Source: a virus
Taxonomy: Duplodnaviria > Caudoviricetes
Virus record (IMG/VR): IMGVR_UViG_3300027804_000001
Coordinates: 224,001 to 288,000 of that record
Length of the DNA: 64,000 nt
Reading direction: 5' to 3' (one strand)
Made by a program: the position numbers and the translations under genes. The notes below the pieces were generated by a model that was not told where the DNA came from, searched no databases, and was given only the letters and a program-made list of their open reading frames with translations. Of the stretch, positions 3,502 to 57,865 are shown piece after piece (position 1 is the first letter of the stretch; every line of letters begins with the position of its first letter).

Positions 3502-3540
3502 TGAGTTAATATACGAAAAAAAATTGAATTTGTGAATAAA

Positions 3541-3771
3541 TTAGATATAATCGTTAGGTGTGGTCAATCCTCCGAAATCTGATGATTCTATTGTTTGAGA
3601 TCCTGATGCAATACTAGCGATTACGGTAGTGGCCCTATTACGACCCACCCCTAAACTTGAATTTAATCCAAGATTTGTATTTGCGGCGTTTCCTGATCCC
3701 GTAATCAGTCCTAATGCTGCCGCGACTTTTCCAATACTTATTTCCGAACCGGTTGCTGGTACTAAACCCAT
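3541..3771 (-). CDS. small Gly/Ser/Ala-rich putative virion protein
   Basis: 76 aa; N-terminus P-x-x-G-x-x-IS resembles small phage fibre accessory proteins; TATTTATA motif upstream. Confidence 0.6.
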   Translation of the reverse strand: MGLVPATGSEISIGKVAAALGLITGSGNAANTNLGLNSSLGVGRNRATTVIASIASGSQTIESSDFGGLTTPNDYI

Positions 3772-3790
3772 TATCTAAAACTAGTTTTTA

Positions 3791-3798
3791 TATAAATA
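3791..3798 (-). promoter_or_regulatory. putative late promoter TATTTATA
   Basis: 19 nt upstream of ATG 3771. Confidence 0.55.
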
Positions 3799-3850
3799 CT
3801 TATAATTTTGATTTATTCTTATGTTATTAATATATGTTTTTTATTTAACA

Positions 3851-24212: not shown

Positions 24213-24668
24213 CTACTTTTTCAAGTTTTGATCTAACAATTTGTAAATTTCGGTTAACATGTCTAATTCAGGCCTGGATTTCTTATGTTGAAATGTGAAT
24301 AACTTGTTGAAATATTCTTTAATTTTGGGTGTTCCTCCCTCCAAATTGATGATATAAAATGCTTCAATATAGAAGTTAAAAAAATATTCCTTATGTCTTC
24401 CTGATTCTTTAAATACTATTCTTTCTTTTGAGAAGTTTTCAATGGTTTTATTCCAACACCATGTAAAATGACCCATCTGGTCTTTTTCATATTCAAAAAC
24501 ATCGGGTCCTAAATAAGTGTTCTCTATTAACTCATGTAATGAAATGAGAAAGTCGTGAAAAAGTTCAATTTTCTCACGACTTATATTGTAAGCCCTATAC
24601 CAAACATCAATTTGATTTTTGTAACTCTCAGATGAGATAAACTCTAAATAACTCTCTTTATTTTCCAT
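24213..24668 (-). CDS. hypothetical protein
   Basis: 151 aa ATG ORF preceded by a TATATT element. Confidence 0.75.
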   Translation of the reverse strand: MENKESYLEFISSESYKNQIDVWYRAYNISREKIELFHDFLISLHELIENTYLGPDVFEYEKDQMGHFTWCWNKTIENFSKERIVFKESGRHKEYFFNFYIEAFYIINLEGGTPKIKEYFNKLFTFQHKKSRPELDMLTEIYKLLDQNLKK

Positions 24669-36120: not shown

Positions 36121-36643
36121 ATGAATTCTCGAGTTCCCAAACTTCGTTAATTAAATTGTAGGTTTCTACATGTTCTCTTTTAAATGATAACCAATCTTCA
36201 AGTTCATCACTATTATTTGGTTGAAATCTTGTTCTATATACTTTATCTGGATTACGTATTGTGTCAGGCCTAACTACAATCATCTGTGTAAAATCTTTAT
36301 TTGACCTAACGTATGTGTTAATTTTTGCCGATGGGTTCTCTCTTAATTTATTATAAAAATAATATTCCTCTAACCAATATTTTTCTTTTCTTATTGGTAT
36401 GTTTAAAGTTTTAAATGATAAACCTGAAATTAAAGAATACTTTTCATTAGACCAAAAATCACCATTCCAACCACCTCGTTCAACTTCTACACCCAAAAGA
36501 GTTTCAGTTGCACCTGTCAAATCGATTACTCTCATTTCTGGTGGGGTTTCATTCAATTGAATTTTAAAATGTGTTTTATAAAAATCAATAACGGCATTTC
36601 TAACTGGTTCATCATTGTAACTTGTTCCTCTTAAATTTGGCAT
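36110..36643 (-). CDS. putative PD-(D/E)xK endonuclease-like protein
   Basis: 177 aa; IDL...GVEVERG and NIPIRKEKYW. Confidence 0.45.
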   Translation of the reverse strand: MPNLRGTSYNDEPVRNAVIDFYKTHFKIQLNETPPEMRVIDLTGATETLLGVEVERGGWNGDFWSNEKYSLISGLSFKTLNIPIRKEKYWLEEYYFYNKLRENPSAKINTYVRSNKDFTQMIVVRPDTIRNPDKVYRTRFQPNNSDELEDWLSFKREHVETYNLINEVWELENSYEI

Positions 36644-39063: not shown

Positions 39064-39916
39064 AATTAATATATTTTGAAAGGTCTAAATCCATTACAAT
39101 TTTATTTACTTTTTGTGGTACTTTATATTCCACATATGAACCATCTTCTTTCAATAAGACAATCACACACCCTAATAATTTTAGGTTTTCATATTTGGTA
39201 CCTTTTAACATCTTTAATAACAATCTCGCATACAATGGTAATTGTAAATAATAATGACCTAATGCCGTATCGTGATATTCATTAAATGGTGAGAACATTT
39301 TACCCGTGTAATGTTGTACTTCAAAGTTCTTTGGTTGATTTGTTTTCCAATCTGTAATTACCAAACCAAAATCGGTTTGTTCTTTATTTAACATCAACCA
39401 ACATTTATCGGGTTGTCCTGTGTAACCCAATTCATTATCACCAAGAACAATTTCGGTATCAAGTAAAACCGCACCTCTTTCTTCCATTAATGTTAAAAAT
39501 TCTTTACCGGCTTTAATCATGTTATTACTCCTGGTCAACTGAGTTTCATCACATTCGAAAATTGGTTGTCTCACATCTTTGTAATTACCATTTCTATTAA
39601 CGGCTTCAGTCTCAAGTTCAAAGTGAACTCTACTACCCATGTTTGTAGCATAACTACCTGCTTGTCTCCATTGTTCTTGTAATTCGGCGGCGGCTTCAGG
39701 GTCACCATTGGACATTCTCAATGAGGTTCCTTCCGCATCAAACGCTTTATGAAATTTCTTGATTAATTTGGAAACAGATGGAAATGTTTTTCTAAGAACA
39801 CCATCAATATCTCTCATATAATAAATGTGTTCTTCCTCCACAAATGTTATATCAAGTTCATTTCTTCTTTTTTCTAATAATTCATTTATCTCTTTTGAGA
39901 TTTCTACTAAATTCAT
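39035..39916 (-). CDS. PD-(D/E)xK exonuclease (RecB-like superfamily)
   Basis: FPSVSK, GSRVH..LE, GQPD, ITDWKT, YLQLPLY. Confidence 0.85.
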   Translation of the reverse strand: MNLVEISKEINELLEKRRNELDITFVEEEHIYYMRDIDGVLRKTFPSVSKLIKKFHKAFDAEGTSLRMSNGDPEAAAELQEQWRQAGSYATNMGSRVHFELETEAVNRNGNYKDVRQPIFECDETQLTRSNNMIKAGKEFLTLMEERGAVLLDTEIVLGDNELGYTGQPDKCWLMLNKEQTDFGLVITDWKTNQPKNFEVQHYTGKMFSPFNEYHDTALGHYYLQLPLYARLLLKMLKGTKYENLKLLGCVIVLLKEDGSYVEYKVPQKVNKIVMDLDLSKYINYGKKTYTYR

Positions 39917-40854
39917 TAATCTAATTGTTTTATTTTATATTCACTTAAATCACCTTTCAAATCGGCAATATCTTTATCTCCTTCTAATTTTACTATCCAT
40001 ACTTTACCCATTAATTTACCACAATTTAACTTGTGGAATAATTTTTCAGCATCAGACCAAGCATCAGGATCCAAGACTATAATAATCTTTTTAGCAGAAT
40101 TATAAAGTCTATTGAATAAATTTTGAGTCATATATTTTCCCAACATTGGTATTGAGTTGTCAAGAAATATGGAATCAAACGCACCTTCAACAATATAAAT
40201 TGGTTCATCCCAATTTATTAAATGTTCATTCCACAATAAACTTTCCTTATCAATTTCAGGATTTTTATACTTCATTTTGGTTCTTGTAAGAAAAGAACGA
40301 GCAATAAAATAATTTAAGTTTTTATTTATATCATAAGATGGAATGATAATTCTATTTTCATATAATCCTTGGTAACAAAATCCAATATTATATTTCTCAA
40401 TCATTTCATCTGTTATGTTTCTACTTTTTATATAATTCCAAGCCTGTTTAAATTGTGGTGTCAATTTAAGTCCAAGACTTACATTTTTAAAAGGAATAAA
40501 TTCTTTTGGTAATCTTACTTGTTTATAAACCCTTTTTGGTGAATCAAAATCTTCGGGTTTTAATAATTGATATTTTTTTAATTGTTTAGGGGTTCCGTAT
40601 TTTTTAATTAGTTTAAATAAAGATCCGTGTGTTTCATGTGTTTCCGCACAAACCCAACATTTAAAAACATTTTGTTTATAGTTTACCTCAAGATTTCCCT
40701 TTCCATCTCCGTGGTCTAAACCTTTTATATCGTAAGAACAAACAGGACAGTCAAAAGACATCTGTCCTCGGTAATCATTGTGCATTTTATAATCACCTAG
40801 AATATCTTCTAGTATTTCAATTACACCCGAAAAGTCTACCTCTTGTTCAGTCAT
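39916..40854 (-). CDS. DNA primase (Zn finger plus TOPRIM)
   Basis: CPVC...CWVC, RIIIP, VEGAFD, LDPD; start trimmed to ATG at 40854. Confidence 0.9.
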   Translation of the reverse strand: MTEQEVDFSGVIEILEDILGDYKMHNDYRGQMSFDCPVCSYDIKGLDHGDGKGNLEVNYKQNVFKCWVCAETHETHGSLFKLIKKYGTPKQLKKYQLLKPEDFDSPKRVYKQVRLPKEFIPFKNVSLGLKLTPQFKQAWNYIKSRNITDEMIEKYNIGFCYQGLYENRIIIPSYDINKNLNYFIARSFLTRTKMKYKNPEIDKESLLWNEHLINWDEPIYIVEGAFDSIFLDNSIPMLGKYMTQNLFNRLYNSAKKIIIVLDPDAWSDAEKLFHKLNCGKLMGKVWIVKLEGDKDIADLKGDLSEYKIKQLD

Positions 40855-40885
40855 AGTTAGAAATAATATAACCAAAAATTTTTGC

Positions 40886-40960
40886 AAAAAAAAATCCCCC
40901 AGAGACACCACCCTCCAGGGGAACCAACTAAACATGTATTTCTACACGTCCCGTCCTACT
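40886..40960 (-). ncRNA. candidate small structured RNA
   Basis: TATTTAT motif upstream; hairpin ACGTGTA-GAAA-TACATGT; then terminator TCCCCTGGAG-N8-CTCTGGGGGA-T9; GC-rich island between ruvC and primase. Confidence 0.5.
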
Positions 40961-40998
40961 TTAATAAATATATCCTATTCTACTTTATAAAAAAAATA

Positions 40999-41616
40999 TC
41001 AGTTGCCGGATTTTTCTGATTTAATCATATTGATGTATCCAATCACTGCGGTTGCCGCATCCGCCATATCGTAATTCTCTTTTTTAAGGTTACCAGTTTT
41101 ACCATATAACCAATTTACATCAGAACAAACGGCGTTAACATGTTCCCATATTACGTGTTTCTTATCGATATCTTTTGGATAACCACCAAACAATACGTTT
41201 CTATTTTTATCGTTCTTTCCGACTAAATCAGGAAACGCAAATTTTCTTGCATTATAAGTTGAAATGAAGGTTGGTATAATACCTAAAATATCATAACAAT
41301 TTTTCAAAATCAAAGTGTTATATCTTAATAGGGTTCCCACTGTATAAATGTTATTAGATTGTAATAATGGTTCTTCTATTATTACACGAGTAATCCCCAT
41401 ATCTTTATAACCCTCAAGATGTTTCTTGAACGCATCAGCCTTTTTTATTAATTCCTCTATTTTGTCTTCAGGCTGAGGTTTTATTTTTGGTGAGAAATGA
41501 GTTAACTCTAATAATTTGGATCCTGTTATATCAAACAGTGCCCACCCAATTGTTTTGGTTGAAATATCCAATCCCAAAATTTTTGGCTTGTTCTTAAATT
41601 TAATATCTATACTCAT
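40999..41616 (-). CDS. RuvC-like Holliday junction resolvase
   Basis: ILGLDISTKTIGW, VIIEEP, DMADA acidic tetrad pattern. Confidence 0.85.
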   Translation of the reverse strand: MSIDIKFKNKPKILGLDISTKTIGWALFDITGSKLLELTHFSPKIKPQPEDKIEELIKKADAFKKHLEGYKDMGITRVIIEEPLLQSNNIYTVGTLLRYNTLILKNCYDILGIIPTFISTYNARKFAFPDLVGKNDKNRNVLFGGYPKDIDKKHVIWEHVNAVCSDVNWLYGKTGNLKKENYDMADAATAVIGYINMIKSEKSGN

Positions 41617-45145: not shown

Positions 45146-45149
45146 ATTC

Positions 45150-45157
45150 TATAAATA
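45150..45157 (-). promoter_or_regulatory. putative late promoter TATTTATA
   Basis: 4 nt upstream of ATG 45145. Confidence 0.6.
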
Positions 45158-45175
45158 TTAATTCTTTTATTTTTA

Positions 45176-46078: not shown

Positions 46079-46083
46079 ACCTA

Positions 46084-46091
46084 TATAAATA
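46084..46091 (-). promoter_or_regulatory. putative late promoter TATTTATA
   Basis: Between terminator and ATG 46078. Confidence 0.6.
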
Positions 46092-46111
46092 CCAATAATA
46101 AAAATTTAAAT

Positions 46112-46136
46112 AAAAAACCCCTTTAAATAAAGGGGT
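46112..46136 (-). terminator. intrinsic terminator
   Basis: ACCCCTTT-ATTT-AAAGGGGT followed by T tract. Confidence 0.8.
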
Positions 46137-46164
46137 CTTTTAATAATTAAAAAATCTTTATTTG

Positions 46165-46768: not shown

Positions 46769-48925
46769 TTATGGTATGGCACCCGTGTCAATTCCTAAAT
46801 AGACATAATCATTACCAGAACTTATTCCTATGGTATGTACATAATTAACATTTCCACTAGGTGCGGTACAATTAGAACTAGAACCCGTCATTGAATACCC
46901 AATGTTGGTACCGAATGTAACTTGGTCGGACTGACTTAAACCTGTTATTTGTCCATAATAATCACAATTTCCATTTAATGGTCCATTATAAAAAGTATTA
47001 TATGAACCACCATTTATTTGATAGGTTATTTCAATTGAGTTGTATGAATTATCATAATCCTGTGCATTTACATAAAGTGTAACATAATTTGCAACACTTA
47101 CTATTTCTGTTACACCACTATTTGTAACACAACCATTCGCATCTGTTACCTCAACACAATATCCACCCGCACATAGAGTACCTACTGATTGTGTTGCTGT
47201 TGATTCAGTTACTCCTGTTATTGTTGTCACCAACGTGCCTCCACATGTTGTATATGGTGCTGTTGAGTCGAGATATAATTTATAAGTTTTTGGCCATACA
47301 CCACCAGTTGAACTCATATCAAGAGTACCATTACAACCACCTGTATCATTTGCTGTAATCGTAATTGAAGCTGATTGTGCACTTGGTTGAGTTATTGTAA
47401 CAGAAATTCCTTTTACTGCACCATTACTAGCTTTAACATTAAGGGTATAACCTGTTGCAATTAAACTACTAAATGTCTTAGGTAATGCAAAATAATTTAC
47501 ACCATCCAACGATACCGTATAAGCTCCACCTGAACCACCTGATGCACTATTAACTGTTAATGAACCGTCTGAACCACCATTACATGATACATTTGTTTGT
47601 GTATAACTAGCACTAATCTCAGTATAAGTTGGTGTCACCGTTGGTGTGAACGTCGGTGTTATTGTAAACGTCGGCGTTATTGTTGGTGTAATTGTATAAG
47701 TAGGTGTTATAGTTGGTGTAAACGTAGGCGTTATTGTTGGTGTAATAGTAAACGTAGGTGTAATAGTTGGTGTAATAGTTCTAGTTGGTGTAATGGTAAA
47801 TGTTGGCGTTATTGTAAACGTCGGTGTTATTGTAAACGTAGGTGTTATAGTTGGTGTAATTGTTTTAGTTGGAGTAATAGTTGGGGTAGGAGTTGGTGCA
47901 ACATAAGTTGTACTTACTGTGAAGTTACAAGCCGGTGTTGGTGTTGGTGTAATAGTAAATGTTGGTGTAATTGTTGGTGTAACAGTTCTAGTTGGTGTTA
48001 ATGTAAACGTTGGTGTAATTGTATAAGTCGGAGTTATAGTTGGTGTAATAGTTGGTGTAAATGTAGGTGTGATAGTTGGTGTTATAGTTTGACTTACTGT
48101 TTGAGTAGGTGTAATAGTATAAGTTGGTGTAATAGTATAAGTTGGTGTAATAGTCTGACTTACAGTTTGTGTAGGTGTAATAGTATAAGTTGGTGTAATA
48201 GTTGGAGTAGGTGTAGGTGCCACATAAGCAGTGCTCACTGTGAAATCACAATCCGGAGTTAACGTTGGTGTAACTGTATAAGTTGGAGTAATAGTTGGTG
48301 TTATAGTATAAGTTGGTGTAATAGTAAATGTCGGTGTGATAGTAAACGTTGGGGTTACTGTTACTGTTGGAGTGATTGTAAGTGTAGGTGTAATAGTTGG
48401 TGATAACGTTTGTGTTGGTGTAATAGTATAAGTTGGTGTTATGGTATATGTAGGAGTAACTGTCGGTGTAGGTGTTGGTGCAACATAAGTTGCATTAACA
48501 ACAAAGTCACAAGCCGGAGTTAACGTTGGTGTTATTGTATATGTTGGTGTTAAAGTTTGTGTGAACGTCGGTGTTATTGTAAACGTCGGCGTTATTGTAT
48601 AAGTCGGTGTTATTGTTGTTGTAGGTGTAATTGTGTATGTTGGTGTAACTGTTAACGTTGGTGTTAAAGTTGGTGTTGGGGTTGGTGCGTAGAATGTCTC
48701 ATTAGTAAAACATGATTCATTGTAAAGAATCACATTTACTGTACTATCAGGTACATAAACATCAACACCCGGATTTGTTGTTAAGTCGTTATAAGTAATT
48801 CCTGTTGCATTATCATTTGTACTAACTCTTGTGGCATAATTAGATGGATTTACATCATCATAGTAAACCGAATATGGTCCTGGTGATGTTCCTCCTGTTA
48901 TTAATATGTGAAAATATCTTGCCAT
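46769..48925 (-). CDS. fibre protein: Thr-Pro stalk, two SprB-like repeats and a tip domain
   Basis: 718 aa; [15 protein letters not shown]...SGG...YTVSLDG and [16 protein letters not shown]. Confidence 0.75.
47625..48685 (-). repeat. T-[IVL]-T-P-T-[YF] hexapeptide coding repeat (18-bp degenerate units)
   Basis: Continuous in the 718 aa ORF, punctuated by three CxFxVxxxYVAP modules. Confidence 0.9.
48468..48562. repeat. 95-bp exact repeat, copy 1
   Basis: Identical to 51252-51346 in the neighbouring gene. Confidence 0.85.
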
Positions 48926-57840: not shown

Positions 57841-57865
57841 ATCTTTTTATTAATAAATATAATTT

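What the first reader, a model, noticed from the sequence alone, without database searches (positions are those of the whole stretch)
40886..40970. Candidate ~75-nt small RNA with its own promoter, GNRA hairpin and terminator, between ruvC and primase
Seen (minus strand): TATTTATT, then GTAGGACGGG, a 7-bp stem with a GAAA tetraloop, an 8-nt linker, a 10-bp GC-rich stem with G-U pairs and T9; it is the most GC-rich intergenic stretch seen. It is the only TATTTAT site not followed by a plausible CDS, since the in-frame ATG at 40935 runs into the terminator. Inference: a late-expressed sRNA, packaging/replication RNA or antitoxin-like decoy; it also insulates the primase operon.
Basis: partly seen in the sequence, partly recalled or inferred. 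Interest (0 to 1): 0.7.

Follow-up and report, generated by a model that had tools for sequence, protein, structure and literature searches.

The report
Conserved small RNA before phage primase
A stretch of about 70 bases just upstream of the primase gene of an uncultured freshwater jumbo phage encodes a previously unclassified, structurally conserved small RNA with its own promoter-like box and terminator, found once per genome in about 190 related phage contigs; what it does is still unknown.

Summary
On the minus strand a TATTTAT box (40970-40964) is followed by a GAAA-capped hairpin, a GC-rich terminator hairpin and nine T's, and none of it is coding. It is a real conserved element. Relatives found through the primase protein (80 loci) and through a DNA pattern (110 contigs) carry the same element 97-120 nt before the primase start. 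Both helices covary strongly: 94.5% of cells are paired against 64% in shuffles, and 18 of 20 pairs show compensatory changes. The lower part of hairpin 1 and the UGGUG core of the terminator loop stay almost invariant. Near-invariant G-U pairs place the fold on the gene-sense strand, so it is RNA. No Rfam family matches, and the strict-pattern hits in 185,579 prokaryotic species genomes were all chance. There is one copy in each of two roughly 330-kb genomes. I found no conserved antiterminator, so a riboswitch or attenuator is unlikely. The best reading is an independently transcribed RNA of about 70 nt whose terminator also insulates the primase promoter. Its partner is unknown, and I found no phage mRNA target. 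This is a new family of a known kind, of moderate interest. The scan had noted this same stretch once before, in an overlapping window of the same genome, and not on other DNA.

The parts
41002..41007 (-). Conserved upstream box GGCAAC, exactly 31 nt before TATTTAT. In the window it overlaps the last codons of ruvC.
   Evidence: The 31-nt spacing is the same in the window and in L014, L026, L060 and L071. The box lies outside any ORF in L026, L040-type and L136/L276 loci. It is not found at the other 100 intergenic TATTTAT sites of relative G001.
40964..40970 (-). Promoter-like box TATTTAT (extended form TATATTTATT, 40972-40963).
   Evidence: It is conserved as TATAYTTWN at a fixed 5-8 nt before the RNA's conserved 5' segment. 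In G001, 78 of 100 intergenic TATTTAT sites lie within 80 nt upstream of a same-strand start, most often 4-5 nt before the ATG. Promoter activity is inferred, not shown.
40887..40959 (-). Predicted small RNA of about 70 nt. The 5' end is inferred and the 3' end lies within the U-tract.
   Evidence: The covariance model R1 hits 40958-40887 at 91.6 bits, E 2e-23, and this is the only significant hit in the window. The 5' end is placed 5-7 nt after the box by analogy with the box-to-ATG distance of other genes.
40926..40955 (-). Hairpin P1. The lower stem is conserved in sequence and holds two G-U pairs and a 1x1 G-purine internal loop. The upper stem covaries and is capped by a GAAA tetraloop (40942-40939).
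   Evidence: 97% of cells are paired, and 8 of 10 pairs have changes on both sides. The same hairpin is the minimum-energy fold in nearly all of the 37 distinct sequences.
40895..40922 (-). Hairpin P2, an intrinsic terminator stem. Its 8-nt loop at 40912-40905 contains an invariant UGGUG at 40910-40906.
   Evidence: All 10 pairs have compensatory changes. The loop core is invariant in all 37 distinct sequences, including the most divergent ones. It is the top-ranked terminator-like site of the region.
40886..40894 (-). U-tract of nine T's. It also serves as the T-rich upstream part of the primase promoter-like region.
40863..40870 (-). Second promoter-like box (TATATT type), 9 nt before the primase ATG at 40854.
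   Evidence: A T-run followed by TATATT-like sequence and then 8-16 nt to the ATG is conserved in nearly all relatives. This includes L059, L069 and L072, which lack the RNA.
39916..40854 (-). DnaG-type primase gene, 312 aa.
   Evidence: Pfam DNAG_N, E 6.5e-7. tblastn gives 33% identity to annotated Flavobacterium phage primases.
40999..41616 (-). RuvC-like resolvase gene, 205 aa. Its mRNA has no terminator of its own before the element.
   Evidence: PHROG 159, E 2.8e-8. Sequence.

Best explanation
This is a phage gene for a structured small RNA of about 70 nt.

Inferred steps:
- Transcription starts a few bases after the TATTTAT box.
- The RNA folds into a long irregular hairpin (P1) followed by a terminator hairpin (P2) and ends in the U-tract.
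- ruvC has no terminator of its own, so the same sequence should also form the 3' end of ruvC transcripts. The arrangement resembles 3'-UTR small RNAs that have their own promoter.

Shown by sequence comparison:
- The sequence-invariant parts are the lower P1 stem, with its G-U pairs and G-purine mismatch, and the UGGUG core of the P2 loop.
- The helices around them change freely but stay paired.

Inferred from this: the invariant parts are contact surfaces for a specific partner, either a protein or an RNA containing CACCA, that acts in trans. As a second role, P2 stops transcription coming from ruvC and the late fibre genes directly in front of the primase operon's own promoter-like box.
For: 1. 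The element is conserved. It is present upstream of primase in about 76 of 80 loci found through the primase protein (primase identity 63-90%). It is also present in 110 contigs found by a DNA pattern. Of these, 105 had primase in the fetched flank, always 97-120 nt downstream; four were cut off before primase, and one (L207) was a chance match that failed the covariance model.

2. The structure is under selection. 94.5% of cells are paired against 63.9% in shuffles. The covariation score is 0.78 against 0.21 in shuffles and 0.08-0.25 in slid controls. 18 of 20 pairs have double changes. An independent MAFFT/RNAalifold run shows compensation at 15 of 18 pairs.

3. It is RNA on the sense strand. 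Two near-invariant G-U pairs in P1 (33 and 34 of 37 sequences) and frequent U-G pairs in P2 would be A-C mismatches on the other strand.

4. It looks like its own transcription unit. The box sits at a fixed distance from the RNA. It belongs to a motif class that is 64% intergenic in a genome that is 7.2% intergenic, and that lies directly before gene starts. In several contigs (L060, L136 and L276 read directly; the same geometry in others) a 274-aa gene has been inserted between ruvC and the element, and the upstream boxes stayed with the RNA.

5. It is not a leader switch. When the 37 sequences are truncated before the 3' strand of P2, they still fold into P1, and the 5' strand of P2 has no conserved alternative partner. 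Primase keeps its own promoter-like box, even in relatives without the RNA.

6. Sequence conservation goes beyond what termination needs. The UGGUG loop core is invariant, whereas the loops of other terminators in the window are unrelated.

7. There is one copy in each of two roughly 330-kb genomes.
Against: - There is no transcript evidence.
- No target was found. The complement of the P2 loop is not enriched in two complete relatives (17 and 18 hits against 19 and 19 for the control), and no copy lies near a start codon.
- The perfect linkage to primase could point to a function in cis.
- The promoter class is ambiguous. Some relatives carry TATACTTAT or TATATTTAA, which depart from TATTTAT.
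- The window's own subclade lacks the T-rich TTTAC box seen 19 nt upstream in other relatives.
Confidence: 0.55

Rival explanations
1. It is a cis-acting leader. Transcripts from the TATTTAT box, and from ruvC upstream, normally stop at P2. A phage or host factor that recognises P1 and/or the P2 loop lets the polymerase read through into the primase, exonuclease and SbcCD-like operon. This would be control of the nut, put or RAT type.
For: The order is promoter, structured RNA, terminator, gene. Linkage to primase was complete wherever the flank was long enough (105 contigs), at a constant 97-120 nt. The unit stays together when genes are inserted upstream. A GNRA-capped hairpin in front of a terminator recalls boxB. 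Earlier notes of this scan report attenuators elsewhere in this genome (not tested here).
Against: There is no conserved alternative (antiterminator) pairing. P1 and P2 do not overlap. Primase has its own conserved promoter-like box between the terminator and the ATG, and relatives lacking the RNA keep this box. The GAAA loop is replaced by larger loops in seven lineages. No factor has been identified.
Confidence: 0.2
2. It is only the terminator of the ruvC and late-gene transcription unit together with adjacent promoter DNA, and the RNA has no function of its own.
For: P2 with nine U's is a textbook intrinsic terminator and the top-ranked one in 18 kb. The usual order in this phage is terminator, then promoter box, then gene. 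Relatives L059, L069 and L072 have just a terminator here.
Against: Termination does not require a second covarying hairpin, a sequence-invariant lower stem or an invariant loop core across primase divergence down to 63%. A promoter-like box upstream of the terminator is the reverse of the usual order.
Confidence: 0.12
3. It acts at the DNA level, as a replication origin or primase-loading site, or as a transcript that primes replication. Examples would be single-strand hairpins or R-loop formation next to the primase gene.
For: It is always adjacent to primase. It has tandem promoter-like boxes, a G-rich transcript and an AT-rich tract downstream, which recalls the transcription-dependent origins of T7 and T4 (from general knowledge, not tested here).
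Against: The near-invariant tandem G-U pairs would be weak G-T pairs in DNA and A-C mismatches on the other strand. There is no GC-skew extremum or gene-strand switch at the homologous position in G001: the element lies at 204.7 kb, and all called genes from 160 to 260 kb but one lie on one strand. A hairpin followed by a U-tract is the RNA terminator signature.
Confidence: 0.06

Closest known systems
Phage small RNAs with their own promoter and terminator (lambda OOP, P22 Sar), and short promoter-proximal terminated transcripts (lambda 6S from pR' to tR'; StxS of Shiga-toxin phages). Named from general knowledge.
   Same: They are about 70-80 nt long, are made from a dedicated promoter, end at an intrinsic terminator, and are encoded between phage genes.
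   Different: OOP and Sar are antisense to a neighbouring gene. Here nothing is encoded on the opposite strand, and no complementary phage target was found. 6S and StxS lie in front of operons controlled by the antiterminator Q. Here the downstream gene has its own promoter-like box. There is no sequence or Rfam relationship.
3'-UTR small RNAs with an internal promoter that share the mRNA's terminator (the DapZ or MicL type in enterobacteria). Named from general knowledge.
   Same: The RNA lies directly after the ruvC stop codon, ruvC has no other terminator, and the promoter-like region overlaps the end of the upstream gene.
   Different: Those RNAs depend on Hfq and have defined seed regions and targets. 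Here the host is unknown, probably of Bacteroidota type judging by the promoter geometry (an inference), and no seed-target pair is known. The element follows primase, not ruvC, when genes are inserted.
5'-UTR-derived and 3'-UTR-derived non-coding RNA candidates mapped in Pseudomonas phages, including jumbo phage phiKZ (PMC10914365).
   Same: They are short non-coding phage transcripts delimited by a start site and an early terminator. That paper lists 29 candidates, 17 of them in phiKZ.
   Different: Those were found by transcript mapping in single phages and lack covariation support. This one rests on covariation across about 190 contigs and lacks transcript data. There is no sequence relationship.
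Lambda nut boxB and HK022 put antitermination RNAs. Named from general knowledge.
   Same: They are promoter-proximal hairpins, one with a GNRA-like loop, or a two-hairpin RNA of about 70 nt, placed upstream of genes that lie behind terminators.
   Different: The second hairpin here is itself the terminator with a U-tract. There is no boxA, the GAAA loop is not universal, and no N-like factor is known.
T-box antiterminator bulge (UGGN pairing with the tRNA NCCA end). Named from general knowledge.
   Same: The invariant UGGUG is complementary to the most common tRNA 3' end, CACCA.
   Different: It sits in the loop of the terminator, not in an antiterminator bulge. There is no specifier loop, no T-box sequence and no alternative fold. 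No T-box family was among the Rfam matches, even at E up to 10.

Membership tests
Any Rfam 15 family | A covariance-model score at or above the family's gathering threshold | tested here: not met
   There were no hits at gathering thresholds in the whole window. At E up to 10 on 40800-41050, the best hit was NsiR1 at 21.5 bits against a threshold of 39, aligned essentially to the terminator only.
Intrinsic (Rho-independent) terminator | A GC-rich hairpin immediately followed by a U-tract on the transcribed strand | tested here: met
   An 11-bp stem with 6 G-C pairs is followed by nine T's, and it is the top-ranked site in 32-50 kb. The stem is maintained by compensatory changes at all 10 pairs. 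Termination itself was not assayed.
Independent sRNA gene | Its own promoter, giving a defined 5' end | tested here: inconclusive
   A conserved promoter-like box lies at a fixed distance. It belongs to a motif class positioned directly before genes, and it stays with the element after an upstream insertion.
Independent sRNA gene | Non-coding, with a structure under selection | tested here: met
   Element length varies from 68 to 77 nt in steps that are not multiples of three. The ATG at 40935 is absent in most relatives. Covariation is strong.
Base-pairing trans-acting sRNA | A conserved single-stranded seed with complementary target sites | tested here: inconclusive
   A candidate seed exists, the invariant loop core. 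Its complement is not enriched in two complete related genomes, and no copy lies within -60 to +40 of a start codon. Host transcripts could not be searched because the host is unknown.
Riboswitch or transcription attenuator | Mutually exclusive terminator and antiterminator folds | tested here: not met
   Truncated folds of the 37 sequences keep P1, and the 5' strand of P2 has no conserved upstream partner. Both polarities of the P2 stem occur (C-rich strand first or G-rich strand first) without any third covarying segment.
Leader-peptide attenuator | A short translated ORF that overlaps the alternative structures | tested here: not met
   The only ATG (40935) lies inside P1 and is lost in most relatives.
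T-box leader | Stem I with a specifier loop, the 14-nt T-box sequence, and an antiterminator bulge | tested here: not met
   The RNA is about 70 nt with only two hairpins, and no T-box family was among the Rfam matches, even at E up to 10.
Chi-like recombination hotspot (the GGTGGTG word) | Over-representation that is independent of reading frame, with a strand bias | tested here: not met
   The word occurs 25 times against 5 expected. However, 19 of the 21 minus-strand copies inside genes are in frame 0 as GGT-GGT-G (Gly-Gly), and GGT is the dominant Gly codon at 1131 against 26 for GGC.
tRNA or tmRNA | A cloverleaf or tRNA-like domain detected by ARAGORN | tested here: not met
   ARAGORN finds no tRNA or tmRNA gene in the window.

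The most novel reading that the evidence does not exclude
The invariant UGGUG in the terminator loop, possibly together with the UUGG at the junction, pairs with the universal CACCA 3' end of tRNAs or tmRNA. The RNA would then be a phage-made sensor, decoy or shield for tRNA ends, a trans-acting counterpart of the T-box contact. It would occur in a phage lineage that invests in translation control: relative G001 carries a tmRNA and tRNA genes, and earlier notes of this scan report tRNA attenuators in this genome (not tested here).
Probability: 0.05. Interest if true: 0.85.

Novelty: new member of a known kind. Interest (0 to 1): 0.5.

Why it matters
Small RNAs of virulent and jumbo phages are poorly known, and almost none has comparative support for a structure. 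This one has a clean two-helix fold and about 190 natural variants. Its invariant surfaces, including a conserved loop inside a terminator, point to a specific partner. It offers three things: a ready covariance model for annotating a widespread clade of freshwater jumbo phages, a defined candidate for RNA-partner pull-downs, and a test case for how these phages separate late from replication transcription. If the partner turns out to be tRNA ends or a host RNA-binding protein, it would reveal a new route by which phages manipulate their hosts.

Tried and rejected
- **Rfam.** There were no hits at gathering thresholds, and only sub-threshold terminator look-alikes at permissive E-values.
- **DNA similarity to GenBank phages.** blastn in distant mode found nothing.
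- **Loose DNA pattern in IMG/VR.** It returned mostly chance matches, and only 9 of 80 loci passed the model. It was replaced by a stricter pattern.
- **Host or prophage copies.** The strict pattern in 185,579 species genomes gave 4 hits, none of which passed the model.
- **Own genome.** None is held for this window. Two near-complete relatives were used instead.
- **Chi-site idea for GGTGGTG.** Rejected as a Gly-Gly codon artefact.
- **Target search.** A scan that allowed G-U pairs was too noisy to interpret. The exact complement of the loop was not enriched and no copy lay near a start codon.
- **Kissing interaction between the hairpin-1 apex and the primase leader.** The 8 nt at 40944-40937 are perfectly complementary to 40865-40858. 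This holds only in some subclades. It is absent in the L040, L052 and L061 group and does not covary where the loop differs. It also overlaps the second promoter-like box. Rejected.
- **Antiterminator search.** Truncated folds gave none.
- **Origin of replication.** There is no skew extremum or strand switch at the homologous position in G001.
- **tmRNA mimicry.** The 5' heptamer GACGGGA resembles the conserved GACGGG of tmRNA 5' ends, and G001's own tmRNA has GACGGGC. The model does not hit that tmRNA. I treat this as coincidence.
- **RbpB lead.** The published in vitro motif (bioRxiv 10.1101/2021.04.27.441718) shares six bases with the window's 5' end. The match is not conserved in relatives, so the lead is weak.
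- **CRISPR-repeat mimic (RNA anti-CRISPR).** Considered but not testable without the host. The variable stems with conserved loops argue against it.

Full report
**1. What is in the sequence**

Read on the minus strand, the 144-nt spacer between a RuvC-like gene and a DnaG-type primase contains the following, in order:
- The RuvC-like gene is at 40999-41616 (PHROG 159, E 2.8e-8).
- The primase is at 39916-40854 (Pfam DNAG_N, E 6.5e-7; 33% identity to annotated Flavobacterium phage primases).
- TATTTAT lies at 40970-40964.
- A G-rich segment follows.
- A 7-bp stem closed by GAAA spans 40949-40932.
- A terminator hairpin spans 40922-40895, followed by nine T's.
- A TATATT-type box at 40870-40863 lies 9 nt before the primase ATG.

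The terminator is the top-ranked terminator-like site in 32-50 kb. The 96-nt stretch folds at -28.8 kcal/mol, z = -3.2. The window looks like a phage: about 30% GC, with almost all genes on the minus strand.

**2. Context inside the window**

Listing all spacers shows that TATTTAT(A) recurs in about a dozen of them. The usual order is terminator, then box, then ATG, in front of fibre and other large structural genes. Here the order is reversed: box, then hairpin, then terminator.

Replication-type genes (primase, ruvC and the genes starting at 24668 and 36960) are instead preceded by a TTATATT-like box. The frame that opens at the ATG of 40935 starts inside hairpin 1 and is not conserved.

**3. 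Relatives**

The primase protein retrieved 80 loci from IMG/VR at 63-90% identity, on contigs of up to 335 kb. These are uncultured jumbo phages. No cultured phage is close: blastn found nothing, and the best tblastn match was 33%.

About 76 of the 80 loci carry the same element just upstream of primase. A strict DNA pattern then found 110 contigs:
- 105 had primase in the fetched flank, always starting 97-120 nt after the element.
- Four were cut off before primase.
- One (L207) was a chance match that failed the covariance model.

In several contigs a 274-aa gene lies between ruvC and the element. The RNA and its upstream boxes stayed next to primase. The element therefore belongs with primase and is not simply the 3' end of ruvC.

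L059, L069 and L072 lack the element. They keep a plain terminator and the second box.

**4. Structure**

MAFFT plus RNAalifold on 35 distinct sequences predicts two helices, with compensatory changes at 15 of 18 pairs. I built covariance model R1 and realigned 37 distinct sequences to it. Counting pairs on that alignment gives:

| Measure | Observed | Shuffled controls | Slid controls |
|---|---|---|---|
| Cells paired | 94.5% | 63.9% | not compared here |
| Covariation score | 0.78 | 0.21 | 0.08-0.25 |
| Shuffles reaching the observed value | 0 of 500 for these two measures | | |

18 of 20 pairs have changes on both sides. Because this alignment is fitted to the model it leans towards the structure, but the independent run agrees.

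Two G-U pairs in P1 are nearly invariant, and U-G pairs are common in P2. The fold therefore exists only on the sense strand, which points to RNA.

The 'linker' pairs with the G-rich 5' segment, giving about 12 bp with a 1x1 G-purine internal loop.

**5. What is conserved in sequence**

From the consensus:
- The lower P1 stem is nearly invariant.
- The GAAA loop is usual, but seven lineages have larger A-rich loops instead.
- The core UGGUG of the P2 loop is invariant in all 37 sequences, including the most divergent.
- The P2 stem is almost free in sequence and even switches polarity (C-rich strand first or G-rich strand first).

Other terminators of the window have unrelated loops. This pattern is what is expected of an RNA that presents defined surfaces to a partner. 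A bare terminator would not need it.

**6. Promoter evidence (indirect)**

The box sits 5-8 nt before the conserved 5' segment in all relatives, as TATAYTTWN.

I fetched a complete relative, G001 (335,630 bp), and analysed it:
- TATTTATA is 64% intergenic, while only 7.2% of the genome is intergenic.
- 78 of 100 intergenic TATTTAT sites lie within 80 nt upstream of a same-strand start.
- The most common distance is 4-5 nt before the ATG.

It is therefore a genuine, positioned expression signal, and many mRNAs may be nearly leaderless. By analogy, the RNA would start around 40959-40957.

Unlike the generic sites, this locus has two extra conserved boxes upstream:
- A T-rich TTTAC box 19 nt before the TA of the main box, a geometry like the Bacteroidota -33/-7 promoter (an inference).
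- GGCAAC, exactly 31 nt before TATTTAT.

Both are retained where they are non-coding, and they are absent from the other 100 sites. The timing of expression remains unknown.

**7. Known families**

No Rfam family matches. The strict-pattern hits in 185,579 species genomes were all chance. There is one copy in each of the two near-complete genomes and one in the window.

**8. Mechanism**

The data favour a discrete small RNA. It probably also exists as the 3' end of ruvC mRNA, and its terminator insulates the primase promoter-like box.

Tests of the alternatives:
- **Switch:** truncated folds show no conserved antiterminator, and primase keeps its own box.
- **Phage mRNA target:** the loop complement is not enriched and no copy lies near a start codon.
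- **Kissing with the primase leader:** the complementarity seen in the window is not conserved.
- **Chi-like reading of GGTGGTG:** it is a Gly-Gly codon artefact.
- **Origin of replication:** there is no skew or strand signal at the homologous position.

The partner is therefore unknown. The complementarity of UGGUG to tRNA CACCA ends is a speculation only.

**9. Limits**

The host is unknown. The 5' end, the promoter activity and any trans action are all inferences.

**10. Verdict**

This is a real, well-supported new RNA family of a familiar kind, a phage small RNA with its own terminator. It is restricted to a clade of freshwater jumbo phages and its function is unknown. Published transcript maps show that short terminated non-coding transcripts are common in other phages, including phiKZ (PMC10914365). 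The kind is therefore not new, but this family and its conserved terminator loop are.

Noticed in passing
G001 (L305-L321) genome-wide; window spacers at 45146-45175, 46079-46164 and 57841-57865: The TATTTAT(A) box most often lies only 4-5 nt before the ATG (39 of 78 sites are within 8 nt). This suggests leaderless or near-leaderless late mRNAs. No other position in the 60 nt upstream is conserved, which recalls the promoter logic of T4 late genes.
   Followed up: partly
G001 at 46808(+), 66409(+), 83685(+) and 109670(-), held in L307, L308, L309 and L310: There are further units of a TATTTAT box followed within 70-110 nt by a hairpin and a T-run, with no ORF of 20 codons or more starting nearby. 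These are possible additional small RNAs of this phage clade.
   Followed up: no
G001:C1:86275-86679 (-), and 90452-91590 (-): ARAGORN predicts a phage-encoded tmRNA (tag ATSTVAVA) and four tRNA genes (Glu, Ser, Met, Thr) in this complete relative. None of the tRNA genes encodes the CCA end.
   Followed up: no
L136, L276 and L060, upstream of the element (the same geometry occurs in several more contigs, such as L176, L239, L242 and L255): In one subclade a 274-aa gene is inserted between ruvC and the RNA. The insertion point lies upstream of the GGCAAC box.
   Followed up: partly
window, all minus-strand genes: Glycine codon usage is extremely biased: GGT 1131, GGA 590, GGG 62, GGC 26. This makes GGTGGTG five times more frequent than dinucleotide shuffles predict.
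   Followed up: yes
window 40937-40944 and 40858-40865: An 8-nt inverted repeat brackets the terminator. One arm is the hairpin-1 apex and the other is the primase promoter-like box. It is present in several subclades but not in all.
   Followed up: partly
window 3541-3771 (-): An unlisted 76-aa ORF begins 20 nt after a TATTTAT box inside the 349-nt 'spacer' 3502-3850. It is probably a real small gene.
   Followed up: no
G001:C1:106556-106623 (-) and 36169-36239 (-): Two weak R1 hits have identical scores (17.8 bits). They look like two copies of one repeated terminator-like element elsewhere in the genome.
   Followed up: no
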